Part shown: positions 674 to 4,711 of the stretch, piece after piece
Position numbering within the stretch: the first letter of the stretch is position 1
How the letters are laid out: each line of letters begins with the position of its first letter
Source: a virus
Virus genome (UHGV): UHGV-0364294
DNA: 20,105 nt
Direction: 5' to 3' (one strand)
Translations under genes and position numbers: made by a program
Notes under the pieces: generated by a model
Told to the model about the DNA's origin: nothing
The model's input: only the letters and a program-made list of their open reading frames with translations
Databases searched by the model: none

Positions 674-961
674 CTACGATGCAAGAATCCATACCAATAA
701 GCATCCGATAATTGGGAAAGAAAAATCCATAAGGCTTCCTACATCCCACACGCGTGGATCAAAACCACCCCACCACGGCATATTCATACGCTTGCCATGC
801 CCGAACATTTCAATCCAGCGATATTCTGCCTGGGTGTGTTCACGCGCAATGAAGAACGTACAACCGGCTATCGCACCGTAAGCCCAGTTTCCGGTAAAAA
901 GACCAATCAGTACCTGCGCAGCCACAGCACAAAACGCATGAAGGAAAGGTGTTATATCCAT
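674..961 (-). CDS. Small integral membrane protein (95 aa, about 3 predicted TM segments), unknown function; candidate lysogenic-conversion or exclusion moron
   Basis: ATG at 959-961 preceded on the minus strand by AAGGAG with 5-nt spacing, immediately after the tailspike stop. Hydrophobic stretches FLHAFCAVAAQVLIGLF, AYGAIAGCTFFIA and FSFPIIGCLLVWILAS. The longer ORF in the track (start 1030) overlaps the tailspike and has no RBS. Confidence 0.6.
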   Translation of the reverse strand: MDITPFLHAFCAVAAQVLIGLFTGNWAYGAIAGCTFFIAREHTQAEYRWIEMFGHGKRMNMPWWGGFDPRVWDVGSLMDFSFPIIGCLLVWILAS

Positions 962-995
962 TATCGCTCCTTTAACATAAGGATAAATAAACACA

Positions 996-3134
996 TCATA
1001 AAATAGATTTCGTCTTTGTAACAATAACATCTACAAAATCGCCTGCAGATATAGCTGATGGTACTGTATCTGCAAGAGTAATCTTTCCTGAAGAGATGCT
1101 TTGCACATCTAATAATTTATTTTCAATCCCATCCGTATATACCAATTTGATATCACTGAGTGGAGGGTAATAAGTGATTGTTCCTTGGTATACATATATT
1201 TCACTACCTGAAATCGATTTCACTACATACCTGCCCCTTACAAGATTAATTTTGAGTTCAGATAAATCGGTTTTATAACAGGTAATTCCTGAACCAATGT
1301 TAGCCATACTAATATCAGTATCACTATAATAAGTAAGTGCTTTCCCTTGTTTTAAAGTAAAAGTATTTTTACTTTTCCTTGGTAAGGATGTGCTATTTTT
1401 GTAATATCTACCAGTAAAGCATAGCCATGAAAATGCAGTATTCACTACATTACCACCAGAATACACAGCTAAACGAATTGCACTAACTGGAACCCCTTCA
1501 TTATTAATCCTGATCTTAATGGAAGAAATATTAACAGCAGTGACATACCTATGGTTGGCAGAATCCCATTGCATAGAAGAAGTTATGGCTTCTGTTTGTG
1601 AGGTTATGACATTCCCATCTCTATCTAATGCATACAGGTAAATGCGAAACGATGCCGTATCTGCTGAGAATGTAAACATATCACCATTTCTTACTGGTAC
1701 ATCTCCAGATTCCCATAACAACCCAAAATTCCGCATAAAAGCAAACTTAGAAGAAACCAGGTGACGGATATTATATAAACCATCAACATCTGTTTGATAT
1801 GCTAATGCACCAACTTCTCCATTGTTAGCACTGGATATAAATGGGGTGTTAGCATTTAAAGAAAACAATGTTACTTCATCGGATATATTTTCCTGAATAT
1901 GAAATACTGCATTCCCCTTGCCATTATCAGTTACCTCGACATAAGTGTAAGGCGATGGATTGTATGGCTCATTTGTATACGCAGGAGATGAAAGCCATGT
2001 AGCTTCAATTGAGTTATTCCACGTATATTCACCAAAGTTAATTATCAACTGTTGGTTAGTTGGGGATGATGGATATCGTTCAAAACGAAACCCGTAGAAG
2101 TAATTGTTATCACCTCTTTGAATATCAATTTTACCTGCCCCCTCCATAGTTCCACCATAAAACTTATTGTGGTTATGATGATATGGATTATCAGCGAAAA
2201 TGATATTATTCGTACGATTCAGATAAAAATAGTTTTCATTTATCCATCCTTTCTCAACTCCAAGAAAATGAATTGTATCGACCTTTTTCAGGTTAAAGGT
2301 TGAGTATGCTATTGAATAATCCGTCGATGCCACCGAAGCATTATAATTTGCATATAACTGTAAGTAGTCGCAACGCTCAATGTTTATATGCTGCCCTTTT
2401 GCCCCGATAATACGAATATCCGGTGTCGTTTCAGATGAAATACCAGAATTTCTGATAATCGTTCCGAAGTTTTGTCTTGGGTTGTTAGGGTTTGATGCAT
2501 TCCCGCCAAGCAATACCCCTATTCCTGAGTGGGATATGGTAAAAACAGCATTGGTCATTTCGAGGCTGACATTACGAAGATTTAATGTCTCCGTAATAAT
2601 AAAATTACCTTCCGCTCGTAATGTTCTGGATGATTCTCGTGCATATTCTGCAGCCAAGATCAATGCAGATGTATCATCTGTTATACCATCGCCTTTTGCC
2701 CCCCACCCTCTTACATCACAATCGTCCCTCCACCGAGATATCTGCAATTCAGGATATTTTTTAGCTCCATCCGGGTCTTCTAATTGCTGCCGTAGTTGAT
2801 CAGGGTCATACTTCAGCACATTCGGAAAATAGAACTGCTGTGTACCATACGCATCATAAACAGCCATAGAATGGCCTTGCACAGTTACGAACTTGGCAAT
2901 CTGTCCGTTATATACCGGATATCCAGCAGCGTTAATGATGATTGGTTGCGAAACAGGAACGTGAGAGCCGTCTTCGTTCTCTATATAAACCTGAATCTGG
3001 TTTTCAGGATTTACCGGGTCAGTGTCAATTTTACCGATATAAATTTTGCCATTAGCTACGGCTTTAAAAGAACGCGCCATAGTGAAGAGTTGCGAAGGCA
3101 TGCTCACTACAACATTGGCTGTAATGTCTGTCAT
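996..3134 (-). CDS. Tailspike protein: P22 gp9-type N-terminal head-binding domain fused to a pectate-lyase-like beta-helix receptor-binding/depolymerase domain
   Basis: The N-terminus [11 protein letters not shown]...[36 protein letters not shown]...[12 protein letters not shown]...NVLKYDPDQ matches the P22 tailspike N-terminal domain as I recall it. Downstream, the motif [16 protein letters not shown] is typical of pectate-lyase-superfamily depolymerase domains. Length 712 aa. Confidence 0.9.
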
Positions 3135-3204
3135 TTAATTTGCTCCAGATACAAGGAATCGCCGCAGCATTGCCGCAGTGATGCATTATTAATCAAAAAA
3201 ATAC

Positions 3205-3217
3205 GACCACCGTGGTC
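3205..3217. promoter_or_regulatory. Mnt-operator-like palindrome (GACCAC-C-GTGGTC) in the mnt/tailspike intergenic region
   Basis: Perfect 6-bp arms around a central C; the core CCACnGTGG resembles the P22 mnt operator core (TCCAC-G-GTGGA as I recall it). Sits 65 nt upstream of the mnt ATG and 71 nt upstream of the tailspike ATG, which is on the other strand. Confidence 0.45.
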
Positions 3218-3281
3218 TTATTGAGGATGCAATCAGCAGATAATAAGATGCCGATCCACTCACAAAAGCGAGGCATCAAGA

Positions 3282-3533
3282 ATGGGAAGAGATGACCCGC
3301 AATTTAATCTGCGGCTACCTTACGAATTAAAGGAAAAACTAAAACAGCGAGCCAAATCCAATGGCCGCTCTCTTAATTCAGAATTAGTTCAGATAGTGAC
3401 TGATGCTGTATCAAAGCCATCCAAAATTTCAGGCTATCGAGACGATGCGGAACGCATCGCTGATGAGCAGTCAGAGCTTGTTAAGAAGATGGTGTTTGAT
3501 ACGCTGAAGGATTTGTACAAAAAACCCACCTGA
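3282..3533 (+). CDS. mnt: Mnt repressor (ribbon-helix-helix, Arc/MetJ superfamily)
   Basis: The 83-aa product MGRDDPQFNLRLPYELKEKLKQRAKSNGRSLNSELVQIVTDAVSKPS...YRDDAERIADEQSELVKKMVFDTLKDLYKKPT is close to P22 Mnt as I recall it (MARDDPHFNFRMP...NGRSMNSELLQIVQDALSKPS...DLYKKTT). GAGG lies 8 nt upstream of the ATG. Confidence 0.9.
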   Translation: MGRDDPQFNLRLPYELKEKLKQRAKSNGRSLNSELVQIVTDAVSKPSKISGYRDDAERIADEQSELVKKMVFDTLKDLYKKPT

Positions 3534-3549
3534 AGGTGGGTTAATTTTT
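3524..3549 (+). terminator. Intrinsic terminator after mnt
   Basis: Stem ACCCACC (3524-3530), loop TGAA (contains the mnt stop), stem GGTGGGT (3535-3541), followed by TTAATTTTT. Confidence 0.6.
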
Positions 3550-3567
3550 GCATTTACCTGGGCCATA

Positions 3568-3596
3568 TTGACTACTTATAAAATGAGATCAATATT
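3568..3596 (+). promoter_or_regulatory. Putative sigma70-type promoter for the small 3633-3812 gene
   Basis: TTGACT (3568-3573), 17-nt spacer, AATATT (3591-3596); ATG about 37 nt downstream. Judged by eye only. Confidence 0.3.
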
Positions 3597-3632
3597 TAAT
3601 CGCCCAATAACGGGTGTATGTTGAGGTATATC

Positions 3633-3812
3633 ATGGCGAAAAAACCAGGTGAAAACACAGGAAAAAACGGCGGAATATACCAAGAAGTTGGCCCACGCGG
3701 CGGTAAGAAAGACAATTTTGCAACCGTCAAGGACAACGAAAGGCTTCCACCAACAACAAAGCCAGGTCATGGCTGGGTATTGGATAAGCGAACTCCAGAC
3801 AGCAAAAAGTAA
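3633..3812 (+). CDS. Small hypothetical protein (59 aa), YjzC-like glycine/lysine-rich protein
   Basis: ATG at 3633 with GAGGT 5 nt upstream (the track ORF starts at 3618 without an RBS). Sequence MAKKPGENTGKNGGIYQEVGPRGGKKDNFATVKDNERLPPTTKPGHGW resembles the YjzC-like small-protein pattern from memory. Flanked by terminator-like hairpins on both sides. Confidence 0.5.
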   Translation: MAKKPGENTGKNGGIYQEVGPRGGKKDNFATVKDNERLPPTTKPGHGWVLDKRTPDSKK

Positions 3813-3818
3813 TAATCA

Positions 3819-3840
3819 AGCCGGGTCACTCCGGCTTTTT
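3819..3840 (+). terminator. Intrinsic terminator (possibly bidirectional) between the convergent 3633-3812 and 3826-4191 genes
   Basis: Stem AGCCGG (3819-3824), loop GTCACT, stem CCGGCT (3831-3836), followed by TTTTT. It overlaps the 3' end of the minus-strand gene. Confidence 0.6.
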
Positions 3841-4191
3841 GATATGTCGCTCGCAGAACTCAACAAGCCTGCTCATTAAGTAGCAGTAAGTCTCGTTGGC
3901 TCTTCCTGGTTCAACATCAACACCTACCCTTGAGCAGATATCGAATGCCATGTGAGCGCACTCATGGGCAATAGTAGATAGTTTGCCATTGAACACGCCT
4001 ATCACATGAAAAACACCATTCTCGCTACTCATTGTATGAGACGCTCCGTTGGCGTCCGAGTCATGCACGTCAACGCCAAGTTTTTGATGCAGGCGTTGCC
4101 ATTCTGGAAAGTCTCTACAAAACACAATTGTACCGCTCTCAAAGAGCGGAACGAGCATCTTTGGTACGTTTCCAATGTTAACTTTTTTCAT
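3826..4191 (-). CDS. Small HExxH protein (121 aa), putative zinc metallopeptidase-like (ImmA/IrrE- or SprT-like motif); function unknown
   Basis: Motif TIAHECAHMAF (hydrophobic-AHExxH). A weak RBS (AGGA) precedes the ATG at 4191; an alternative start is the Met at 4158. It occupies the sieA position between the gp16-like gene and mnt. Confidence 0.5.
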   Translation of the reverse strand: MKKVNIGNVPKMLVPLFESGTIVFCRDFPEWQRLHQKLGVDVHDSDANGASHTMSSENGVFHVIGVFNGKLSTIAHECAHMAFDICSRVGVDVEPGRANETYCYLMSRLVEFCERHIKKPE

Positions 4192-4225
4192 GGTATCCTG
4201 CGCAAAACTAAGGAGAGTTAATTAT

Positions 4226-4711
4226 ATGAAAAAATCACTGTTAATTATCCCGCTTCTGCTGGCTGGGTGCGCAAAAGTAAGCGACTATCAGGCAAGTTGC
4301 GAGCAACGCTATCCAAAGCTTAGCGATATGGCTAATTGCCTTGATGCCAGCTTGAAGAACGACTCTCGCATGGCATCAGCACCAACACCTAAGCTGTATG
4401 TCCTTGCTGCGAAGATGCTCGGGCAAGGTGTCGATGAAGGCAAGATAAGTGACACACAGGCAAGACTTGAACTTCAGAATCTTTATGTTCAATTACAAAG
4501 CCAAGAACAAGCACAACAAATAGCACAAAGCCAAGCATTCCAGCAGGCTTTATTGAATTATCAGGCTGTAAACACAATGCAAGCGATCGAGCAAAAAGCG
4601 CGCCAGCCTGTTATAACTCAACCTTACCCAACACGCGTTGACACATATACAAACTGCAATTCAGGATTTGGAAACACGGTAACATGCAACAGTAGCAGTA
4701 ATATCAGATAG
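4226..4711 (+). CDS. Phage-encoded secreted lipoprotein (161 aa) with a Q-rich predicted coiled-coil segment; candidate superinfection-exclusion or lysogenic-conversion protein
   Basis: ATG at 4226 preceded by AAGGAGAG (4210-4217). The N-terminus MKKSLLIIPLLLAGC has a signal peptide and lipobox (LAGC). The track ORF start at 4175 lacks an RBS. Confidence 0.65.
   Translation: MKKSLLIIPLLLAGCAKVSDYQASCEQRYPKLSDMANCLDASLKNDSRMASAPTPKLYVLAAKMLGQGVDEGKISDTQARLELQNLYVQLQSQEQAQQIAQSQAFQQALLNYQAVNTMQAIEQKARQPVITQPYPTRVDTYTNCNSGFGNTVTCNSSSNIR

What the first reader, a model, noticed from the sequence alone, without database searches (positions are those of the whole stretch)
3135..3533. Mnt repressor retained without arc/ant; operator abuts the tailspike gene
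P22 immI is mnt, arc, ant, with Mnt repressing the ant promoter at O_mnt. Here Mnt and an O_mnt-like palindrome (GACCACCGTGGTC, 3205-3217) are present, but the tailspike ATG is only about 150 bp from mnt and there is no room for arc or ant. The operator may therefore act directly on a promoter reading into the tailspike (and the downstream membrane-protein gene), or on mnt autoregulation. Either would be a rewired immI circuit.
Basis: partly seen in the sequence, partly recalled or inferred. Interest (0 to 1): 0.6.

Follow-up and report, generated by a model that had tools for sequence, protein, structure and literature searches.

The report
Orphan Mnt repressor cassette beside tailspike
This E. 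coli P22-like prophage keeps the Mnt repressor, its operator and its own promoter but has lost the arc and ant genes that Mnt normally controls. The layout is already described in phages L, ST64T and ST104, is common, and appears to be kept by selection, and it shows no sign of a promoter driving the tailspike gene.

Summary
A 13-bp palindrome (3205-3217) sits exactly where P22 has O_mnt. No arc or ant is found in the window, or in a 99%-identical complete prophage.

1. The layout is not new. Phages L, ST64T, ST104, SE1, ST160, Gally and 720R6 carry the same module, and the literature describes it. About 112 of 5,426 complete E. coli genomes carry it.
2. The P_ant equivalent has decayed. The best promoter score on the tailspike strand is 4.9 bits, below the window's background. 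The P_mnt homologue scores 10.5 bits. Mnt control of a tailspike promoter is therefore not supported.
3. The cassette is not junk. mnt has dN/dS of about 0.1 across E. coli and Salmonella copies that share the same deletion junction. The operator half-sites are near-invariant while the centre base takes all four values. Each genome has only one operator.

A point I did not find described in the papers I could search or read: this lineage has Gln6 in place of His6, paired with a symmetric operator change (GGTCCAC to AGACCAC).

Best reading: a self-contained, probably autoregulated orphan mnt cassette. Why selection keeps it is unknown.

The parts
996..3134 (-). Tailspike gene (P22 gene 9 homologue), divergent from mnt
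   Evidence: Pfam Head_binding at residues 1-113, 9.5e-68. Annotated as tailspike in related phages.
3135..3183 (-). Tailspike leader, homologous to the P22 ant-gene 9 spacer just upstream of gene 9. This is the left flank of the arc-sar-ant deletion.
   Evidence: Alignment with P22 L004 2415-2470 and with HK620.
3184..3204 (.). Junction segment with no P22 counterpart. It is variable among relatives and includes an A-run.
   Evidence: Alignment A2 and per-position variation. E. coli-type and Salmonella-type copies share the motif ATGC.T.ATTAA.
3205..3217 (.). O_mnt homologue of the Gln6 class: GACCAC-C-GTGGTC. Relatives mostly have the 15-bp form AGACCAC-N-GTGGTCT.
   Evidence: Positional homology to P22 O_mnt. 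Unique in the window and in complete genomes. Half-sites intact in 105 of 111 locus records, while the centre base takes all four values.
3221..3249 (+). P_mnt homologue: -35 TTGAGG, 17-bp spacer, -10 TAAGAT
   Evidence: Same position as the annotated P22 P_mnt. PWM score 10.5 bits against a window maximum of 10.8. Conserved as TTGTGG/TATGAT in Salmonella-type copies.
3226..3254 (-). Decayed P_ant equivalent: -35 TCGGCA (reverse complement of 3249-3254) and -10 TGCATC (reverse complement of 3226-3231)
   Evidence: Alignment to P22 P_ant TTGACA-17-TATATT. It is not among the top-scoring sites on the - strand.
3270..3273 (+). Likely Shine-Dalgarno sequence (GAGG), 8 nt before the mnt ATG
   Evidence: Read directly from the sequence. 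Invariant among 31 unique upstream sequences.
3282..3533 (+). mnt: ribbon-helix-helix repressor with a C-terminal tetramerisation domain. It has Gln in place of His6 (mature numbering).
   Evidence: Pfam, PDB 1MNT and 1QEY, alignment A1, dN/dS 0.095 against ST160.
3523..3542 (.). Bidirectional terminator-like hairpin overlapping the mnt stop codon
   Evidence: Terminator scan hits on both strands. Homologous to the hairpin at the mnt remnant in HK620, annotated tMNT.

Best explanation
This is the 'mnt-only' version of the P22 immI / 'ant moron' region. It consists of P_mnt, one operator and mnt, and is what remained after an old deletion removed arc, sar, ant and the transcribed part of P_ant from an immI of the Gln6 specificity class.

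**Shown**
- The protein is a full-length Mnt.
- The palindrome occupies the O_mnt position, abutting the -35 of a conserved P_mnt homologue. The operator centre is about 45 bp upstream of the predicted start.
- The P_ant hexamers and O_arc are gone.
- The operator is the only such site in complete genomes.
- Both the gene and the operator half-sites are conserved by selection in copies that share the same deletion junction.

**Inferred**
- Gln6 Mnt binds this operator as a tetramer. Its only cis effect is on its own promoter, that is autoregulation, with the sign unknown.
- The tailspike is transcribed by antiterminated late-operon read-through across mnt, as in relatives that lack immI entirely. 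It is not transcribed from an Mnt-controlled promoter.

The selective benefit of keeping the cassette is unresolved.
For: **Identity and homology**
- Family membership.
- Operator and promoter homology, with no indel between the operator and the -35.

**Promoters**
- The P_mnt homologue scores 10.5 bits. The best score on the tailspike strand is 4.9, below the background median of 5.6.
- For comparison, P22 P_ant scores 15.5 and P22 P_mnt 13.1.

**Distribution**
- All 65 IMG/VR loci with the MGRDDPQFNLRL N-terminus have the tailspike upstream and no arc or ant: 136-149 nt upstream in most, about 425 nt in some, and 932 nt in one IS1-disrupted copy.
- All 11 loci with the P22-type N-terminus (MARDDPHFNFRMPM) have Arc next to mnt plus Ant. 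Four further His6 loci (MARDDPHFNFRMPL; L079-L082) have an Ant homologue but no recognisable Arc and no O_mnt-like palindrome.
- 112 of 5,426 complete E. coli genomes hold at least 80% of 3140-3540.

**Selection**
- dN/dS is 0.095 with dS 0.51 for window against ST160 mnt. These copies share the junction motif ATGC.T.ATTAA.
- Half-sites are intact in 105 of 111 locus records, and the centre base varies among C, A, G and T.
- There is one operator per genome in Gally, ST160 and the LD67-1 prophage, even with 2 mismatches allowed.

**Ancestry**
- A complete mnt-arc-ant module of the same class exists: Mnt MARDDPQFNLRM with operator AGACCACCGTGGTCT, and P_ant scoring 11.3 bits.

**Literature**
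- PMC2629481 and PMC8022706 describe mnt-only regions.
Against: - No binding or transcription data exist for this Mnt variant. Promoter calls rest on hexamer scoring only.
- An autoregulated repressor with no other target does not by itself explain purifying selection. Some cis or trans target must exist that I did not identify.
- The tailspike is the only neighbour conserved across all copies. That is compatible with a cis effect on tailspike transcription by some route other than a sigma-70 promoter.
- A few copies are decaying: a stop at codon 53 plus an operator mutation in L073, and the same stop in L078 with an intact operator.
Confidence: 0.6

Rival explanations
1. Stand-alone immunity. 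Prophage-made orphan Mnt acts in trans on the O_mnt/P_ant of incoming phages of the same operator class. This blocks their antirepressor and protects the resident prophage from Ant-mediated induction. It is compatible with the best explanation and would supply the missing selective benefit.
For: - mnt and the operator half-sites are under purifying selection without a cis ant.
- Complete mnt-arc-ant modules with the same Gln6 Mnt and AGACCAC operator exist (L099, L152, L163).
- In P22, prophage Mnt represses ant (PMC11016777).
Against: - The only Gln6-class ant modules found resemble Erwinia phage Midgardsormr38.
- None was found in 5,426 E. coli genomes by megablast.
- The one E. coli mnt-arc pair I examined has the P22-type His6 operator, as does EC11.
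- Trans-immunity would not require keeping the operator in cis.
- Phage L, which carries this module, lacks functional secondary immunity according to the title of Susskind & Botstein 1978, cited in PMC8022706.
Confidence: 0.2
2. One reading: the operator controls a promoter that reads directly into the tailspike gene and the small downstream ORF, so Mnt keeps the tailspike silent in lysogens.
For: - The operator lies between mnt and the tailspike.
- The tailspike is the one neighbour conserved in all 65 or more loci.
- A -10-like hexamer (TATTAT or TATGAT) persists on the - strand.
Against: - Both P_ant hexamers have decayed (TCGGCA and TGCATC).
- The best - strand score is 4.9 bits, below the background median of 5.6, and the consensus scan found nothing.
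- The -10-like hexamer has no usable -35 and no TG extension.
- Relatives with no immI at all (HK620) still express the tailspike from the late operon.
Confidence: 0.08
3. A functionless relic of a degrading immI region, drifting toward loss.
For: - PMC8022706 raises this possibility for phage L.
- HK620 shows a further-degraded state with only mnt and ant remnants.
- L073 and L078 carry a premature stop; L073 also has an operator mutation.
Against: - dN/dS is 0.095 at dS 0.51 after the deletion.
- Operator half-sites are intact in 105 of 111 records while the adjacent junction bases and the centre base vary freely.
- The P_mnt hexamers and the Shine-Dalgarno sequence are conserved.
- The module is present in plaque-forming phages and in about 2% of E. 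coli genomes.
Confidence: 0.07
4. Roadblock or gate. Mnt bound at the single operator, together with the bidirectional terminator at 3523-3542, limits stray or late read-through transcription from the ejection-gene side into the tailspike gene.
For: - The operator and terminator both lie in the path of late-operon transcription.
- PMC2629481 notes that the region influences tailspike levels in P22 and that Mnt and Arc 'may have a role'.
Against: - There is no direct evidence.
- In P22, antiterminated late transcription passes the occupied O_mnt.
- Nothing in the sequence distinguishes this idea from simple autoregulation.
Confidence: 0.05

Closest known systems
mnt-only 'ant moron' of Salmonella phages L / ST64T / ST104 (also SE1, ST160) and E. 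coli phages Gally and vB_EcoP-720R6
   Same: - Same gene order: ejection genes, small moron genes, mnt, then a divergent tailspike.
- Same Mnt N-terminus (MGRDDPQFNLRLPY).
- Same operator class (AGACCAC-N-GTGGTCT).
- Same P_mnt region and the same junction with the tailspike leader.
- Gally and 720R6 Mnt are 100% identical to the window's.
   Different: - The left half-site flank is C rather than A, giving a 13-bp rather than 15-bp perfect palindrome.
- There is an 11-nt longer junction than in the Salmonella type.
- Phage L has a different C-terminal Mnt domain.
- The neighbouring moron genes and the tailspike receptor domain differ.
P22 immI (mnt - O_mnt/P_ant/P_mnt/O_arc - arc - sar - ant)
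   Same: - Mnt is 76% identical.
- The operator geometry is the same, as is its spacing to the P_mnt -35.
- The location is the same, between gene 16 and gene 9.
   Different: - arc, sar and ant are absent.
- The P_ant hexamers and O_arc are not conserved.
- His6 is replaced by Gln.
- The operator differs symmetrically at +-5 (T:A to A:T) and in the outer flank at +-7.
[quoted passage not shown]
   Same: Same tailspike leader, same hkcC and orf59a-type neighbours, and the same terminator at the end of mnt.
   Different: HK620 has lost mnt, the operator and P_mnt as well. Only annotated remnants of mnt and ant remain.
Gln6-class complete immI (IMG/VR loci L099, L152, L163; nearest isolate Erwinia phage Midgardsormr38)
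   Same: Gln at position 6, Leu9, and the operator AGACCACCGTGGTCT followed by TATTGA.
   Different: It has arc and ant with a good P_ant (11.3 bits). Its Mnt is only about 58% identical over the N-terminal domain. No P22-type head-binding tailspike was found in the DNA held for these loci.

Membership tests
Mnt repressor (P22-type ribbon-helix-helix tetramer) | N-terminal Arc-like ribbon-helix-helix domain | tested here: met
   Pfam PF03869 2.8e-22 over residues 3-50. PDB 1MNT 2.8e-34.
Mnt repressor (P22-type ribbon-helix-helix tetramer) | C-terminal Mnt tetramerisation domain | tested here: met
   Pfam PF11423 2.2e-18 over residues 53-80. PDB 1QEY 3.1e-12.
Mnt repressor (P22-type ribbon-helix-helix tetramer) | Beta-strand DNA-contact residues Arg2, His6, Asn8, Arg10 (mature numbering; the identity of these contact residues is from my own knowledge of Knight & Sauer's work) | tested here: inconclusive
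   Arg2, Asn8 and Arg10 are kept, and His6 is Gln. The change goes with a symmetric operator change in three separate contexts. This fits altered specificity rather than loss of function.
Mnt repressor (P22-type ribbon-helix-helix tetramer) | Binds a palindromic operator with an odd centre beside its own promoter | not testable with these tools
   The site is present, unique and conserved. Binding needs EMSA or footprinting.
Complete P22 immI secondary immunity region | arc gene next to mnt | tested here: not met
   No Arc homologue other than Mnt itself in the window or the LD67-1 prophage.
Complete P22 immI secondary immunity region | ant antirepressor gene downstream of arc | tested here: not met
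   No P22 Ant homologue. The 147-bp intergenic region leaves no room.
Complete P22 immI secondary immunity region | Strong P_ant overlapping O_mnt and O_arc | tested here: not met
   The hexamers read TCGGCA and TGCATC. The best - strand score is 4.9 bits, against 15.5 for P22 P_ant.
Complete P22 immI secondary immunity region | sar antisense RNA | tested here: not met
   The arc-ant spacer that encodes sar is deleted. No Rfam hit reaches its gathering score in 2900-4300.
mnt-only 'ant moron' (L / ST64T / ST104 type) | mnt is the only immI gene, lying between the gene-16 side and a divergent tailspike | tested here: met
   Gene order. Same as phage L, ST160, and Gally and 720R6. Described in PMC2629481 and PMC8022706.
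mnt-only 'ant moron' (L / ST64T / ST104 type) | Shared deletion junction and Gln6/AGACCAC operator class | tested here: met
   Alignment A2, upstream sequences.

The most novel reading that the evidence does not exclude
Orphan Mnt-operator pairs may be an actively maintained, specificity-diversifying system in their own right. At least three protein/operator classes sit beside P22-like tailspike genes:
- His6 with GGTCCAC;
- Gln6 with AGACCAC;
- the Sf101 type with ATACC-N5-GGTAC.

In the Gln6 and Sf101 classes there is no antirepressor in cis. They might serve as portable 'anti-antirepressor' immunity determinants against Ant-carrying competitors, or as a gate on tailspike expression. The natural Gln6 and +-5 A:T pair would then be a naturally occurring counterpart of the laboratory 'master residue' specificity switches.
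Probability: 0.25. Interest if true: 0.5.

Novelty: already known. Interest (0 to 1): 0.25.

Why it matters
The finding as stated adds no new architecture. It is another copy of a module already drawn in the epsilon34 (2008) and phage L (2020) genome papers, and already annotated in E. coli phages.

What this analysis adds:
- The orphan mnt and its operator are under clear purifying selection. This bears on the question the phage L paper left open: 'another function' or 'a remnant'.
- The module's operator and recognition residue differ from P22 in a matched way (Gln6 with a symmetric change at +-5). This would explain why phage L behaves genetically as if it lacks P22-type immI.

If someone tests it, the system is a small and tractable case of a repressor that outlived its target gene.

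Tried and rejected
- **Genome-contig scan with the Mnt alignment.** It returned only 9 loci. Three were enterobacterial-type relatives with an adjacent Arc homologue (Pluralibacter, Pectobacterium, Phlomobacter) and six were distant alphaproteobacterial Mnt-like proteins. None was an E. coli or Salmonella copy of the mnt-only module, so it added little on architecture.
- **Gln6-class complete immI in E. coli.** Megablast gave no match. blastn gave 74 genomes at about 66% identity, and the one I examined was P22-type His6. I found no E. coli phage whose ant this Mnt would obviously repress.
- **Exact-pattern scan of viral contigs for AGACCACNGTGGTCT.** 71 of the 120 loci had none of the four query proteins and are probably chance matches. 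Counts from it are lower bounds.
- **Operator numbering and residue-6 papers.** I tried to read PMC55749, PMC140065 and PMC506813. None is held. The link between residue 6 and operator positions 16/17 rests on my own knowledge and on one sentence in PMC1184061.
- **Palindrome plus T-run on the - strand as a terminator.** Rejected: the stem is 5 bp, and the A/T run is not conserved in 720R6 or ST160.
- **Rfam scan of 2900-4300.** It gave only sub-threshold hits to the terminator hairpin.
- **KilAC 'antirepressor' in the nin region of the LD67-1 and Gally prophages.** Considered as a hidden Mnt target and rejected. No operator-like site with 2 or fewer mismatches exists anywhere else in the prophage.

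Full report
**1. What is in the sequence**

The window is the late region of a P22-like prophage of E. coli. It runs on the - strand from small terminase to tailspike. The prophage lies between dacD and sbcB in near-identical genomes.

- ORF 3282-3533 (+) is a full-length Mnt. It matches Pfam Arc (2.8e-22) and Repressor_Mnt (2.2e-18), and PDB 1MNT and 1QEY. It is 76% identical to P22 Mnt.
- ORF 996-3134 (-) is a tailspike with the P22 head-binding domain.
- The two start codons are 147 bp apart, and the genes are divergent.
- The palindrome GACCACCGTGGTC is at 3205-3217. It is the only such site in the window even with 2 mismatches allowed; 0.03 are expected by chance at up to 1 mismatch.
- No Arc or Ant homologue is in the window. 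None is in the complete prophage of E. coli LD67-1 either, which is about 98-99% identical to the window outside the tailspike receptor domain.

**2. Homology to P22 immI and the deletion endpoints**

In the annotated P22-pbi record, O_mnt is AGGTCCACCGTGGACCT. It is followed directly by TATTGAGAAT, the -35 region of P_mnt. P_ant (TTGACA-17-TATATT) lies on the other strand and overlaps O_arc.

The window aligns without indels from the palindrome through TATTGAGGAT to the mnt ATG. The palindrome is therefore the positional homologue of O_mnt.

To its left, 3135-3183 is homologous to the P22 spacer just upstream of gene 9. A short junction with no P22 counterpart lies between them. The deletion thus runs from a few bases left of O_mnt to about 48 nt upstream of the tailspike ATG. 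It removed the P_ant leader, arc, sar, ant and the ant terminator.

E. coli-type and Salmonella-type copies share the junction motif ATGC.T.ATTAA. This points to a single old event rather than repeated recent ones.

**3. The layout is already known and widespread**

- The same module is in Salmonella phages ST160, SE1 and ST-35, and in E. coli phages vB_EcoP-720R6 and Gally. In those records the gene is annotated as Mnt next to the tailspike.
- Phage L has the same Mnt N-terminus, operator and intergenic region, but a different C-terminal Mnt domain.
- Villafane et al. [quoted passage not shown] - In IMG/VR, all 65 loci with the MGRDDPQFNLRL N-terminus have the tailspike upstream and no arc or ant. 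The tailspike lies 136-149 nt upstream in most, about 425 nt in some, and 932 nt in one IS1-disrupted copy.
- All 11 loci with the P22-type N-terminus have Arc next to mnt plus Ant. Four further His6 loci (L079-L082) have an Ant homologue but no recognisable Arc and no O_mnt-like palindrome.
- In 5,426 complete E. coli genomes, 112 hold at least 80% of 3140-3540. A blastn search with a Gln6-class mnt-operator-arc query (L163) matched 74 genomes spanning an mnt-arc pair.
- The tailspike itself is mosaic. E. coli EC11 has this window's tailspike (98% identical) joined to a complete P22-type immI.

**4. Promoters**

I scored sigma-70 hexamers with a simple weight matrix, using P22 as the positive control.

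| Site | Score (bits) |
|---|---|
| P22 P_ant | 15.5 |
| P22 P_mnt | 13.1 |
| Window P_mnt homologue (TTGAGG-17-TAAGAT, 3221-3249) | 10.5 |
| Best site on the tailspike strand of 3135-3300 | 4.9 |
| Maximum of any 166-nt window in the 20 kb | 10.8 |
| 90th percentile of 166-nt windows | 8.3 |
| Median of 166-nt windows | 5.6 |

The P_ant positions now read TCGGCA and TGCATC, so the two most conserved -10 positions are lost. The stricter consensus scan also found nothing there. ST160 and 720R6 behave the same way.

There is therefore no sequence support for an Mnt-controlled promoter reading into the tailspike. The tailspike is most simply expressed by late-operon read-through. This must also be true for HK620, where only remnants of mnt and ant remain.

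**5. The cassette is under selection**

- Window against ST160 mnt gives dS 0.51, dN 0.048 and dN/dS 0.095. These copies share the deletion junction, so this selection acted in the absence of arc and ant.
- I examined 111 locus records (some contigs were fetched twice), which gave 31 unique upstream sequences. Both half-sites are intact in 105 records.
- The centre base is the most variable position of the whole 90 nt. Among unique sequences it is C in 10, A in 9, G in 6 and T in 6. The junction bases to the left also vary.
- The -35, -10 and Shine-Dalgarno positions are conserved.
- Complete genomes (ST160, most of Gally, and the LD67-1 prophage) have exactly one operator, even with 2 mismatches allowed.
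- A few copies are decaying. L073 and L078 have a stop at codon 53, and L073 also has a half-site mutation.

**6. A matched change of protein and operator**

| Feature | P22 class | This lineage |
|---|---|---|
| Residue 6 (mature numbering) | His | Gln |
| Residue 9 | Phe | Leu |
| Arg2, Asn8, Arg10 | present | retained |
| Operator half-site | GGTCCAC | AGACCAC |

The operator differs symmetrically at +-5 from the centre (T:A to A:T) and at +-7.

The same Gln6/AGACCAC pairing recurs in two other contexts. One is phage L, which has a different C-terminal domain. The other is a set of complete mnt-arc-ant modules whose Mnt is only about 58% identical (L099, L152, L163); their nearest isolate is Erwinia phage Midgardsormr38.

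Sf101 has yet another N-terminus with another palindrome (ATACCGAAATGGTAC), again without arc or ant and again next to the tailspike.

From my own knowledge, residue 6 is the Mnt 'master residue' that governs operator positions 16/17, which correspond to +5/+6. PMC1184061 states only that one amino-acid change in Mnt alters preference mainly at two adjacent positions. I could not read the primary papers.

This class difference would explain why phage L scored genetically as lacking P22-type secondary immunity (title of Susskind & Botstein 1978, cited). That explanation is an inference.

**7. Mechanism**

*Shown.* There is one operator, centred about 45 bp upstream of the predicted P_mnt start and abutting its -35. 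There is no P_ant and no O_arc. The cassette ends in a bidirectional terminator at 3523-3542.

*Inferred.* Gln6 Mnt binds the operator and modulates only its own promoter.

In P22, as I recall from Vershon et al. 1987, Mnt raises P_mnt activity by shutting off the competing P_ant. PMC2724298 confirms only that P_ant and P_mnt are 'divergent and overlapping'. With P_ant gone that indirect route is moot, so the sign of autoregulation here cannot be predicted.

Autoregulation alone does not explain why selection keeps the cassette. Trans-immunity against Ant-carrying phages of the same operator class is the most attractive addition. However, I found such phages only outside E. coli and Salmonella. 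A roadblock role on transcription entering the tailspike cannot be excluded.

**8. Verdict**

- The 'rewired circuit driving the tailspike' reading is not supported.
- The architecture is already in the literature and in annotated phage records.
- The residual interest lies in two points. Selection clearly maintains the orphan repressor/operator pair. The pair is also a natural specificity variant, Gln6 with AGACCAC, which I did not find described in the papers I could search or read.

Noticed in passing
window 3211 (centre of the operator); loci L014-L078 and others: The centre base of the palindrome is the most polymorphic position in the 90 nt upstream of mnt. Among 31 unique sequences it is C in 10, A in 9, G in 6 and T in 6. 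All four bases occur on otherwise identical E. coli-type haplotypes. This suggests recurrent change at the palindrome centre, through hypermutability or template switching, or else recombination.
   Followed up: partly
L222 (Shigella phage Sf101) 1865-2246: A third mnt-only module lies directly beside a tailspike. Its Mnt N-terminus is different (..DEAQFHLRLPHEL) and so is its palindrome (ATACCGAAATGGTAC). It is followed by the same CTATTGAG -35 region.
   Followed up: partly
L099, L152, L163 (IMG/VR contigs): Complete mnt-arc-ant modules have Gln6 Mnt and the operator AGACCACCGTGGTCT. Their nearest isolate is Erwinia phage Midgardsormr38 at about 80% identity over arc-ant. This is the probable ancestral state of the orphan module.
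   Followed up: partly
L073, L078: Some copies of the orphan mnt are decaying. L073 and L078 have a premature stop at codon 53, and L073 also has a half-site mutation (GTGATC).
   Followed up: no
L032, L043, L060-L064, L069, L073, L078 (about 280 bp left of the operator); L040: In these loci an AT-rich insert of about 280 bp separates a vestigial tailspike start (TATCTGTCAT plus leader) from the real tailspike start. This implies tailspike replacement by recombination just inside the gene. L040 has an IS1-like insertion in the tailspike N-terminus.
   Followed up: partly
window 959-2776 against L220; L094 3996-6134: The tailspike receptor-binding part is mosaic. The otherwise 99%-identical LD67-1 prophage has a different tailspike body. 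EC11 has this window's tailspike joined to a complete P22-type immI.
   Followed up: partly
window 3523-3542 and 3568-3812: A bidirectional terminator-like hairpin overlaps the mnt stop. Downstream, a promoter-like TTGACT-17-AATATT (3568-3596) precedes a 59-aa ORF (3634-3812). The ORF is homologous to P22 orf59a / HK620 hkcD and ends at a second hairpin at 3818-3837.
   Followed up: no
window 4226-4711 (+), 3826-4191 (-), 674-1030 (-): A lipoprotein-like ORF (LLAGC lipobox, PHROG 6067) sits where P22 has sieA. An hkcC homologue (PHROG 1365) lies next to it. A small ORF (PHROG 1443, function unknown) follows the tailspike at the prophage end near dacD.
   Followed up: no
L008-L013 (alphaproteobacterial genome contigs): Distant Mnt-like proteins (MARDDPHFRLRLP...) have two or three copies of GACGCAC-N-GTGCGTC-like palindromes upstream. 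This is a multi-operator arrangement, unlike the single enterobacterial operator.
   Followed up: no
RefSeq phage records NC_014900, NC_011802, NC_004348, NC_027398: In several RefSeq phage records the mnt gene product is named 'partition protein ATPase'. This looks like a propagated annotation error for an 83-aa ribbon-helix-helix repressor.
   Followed up: no
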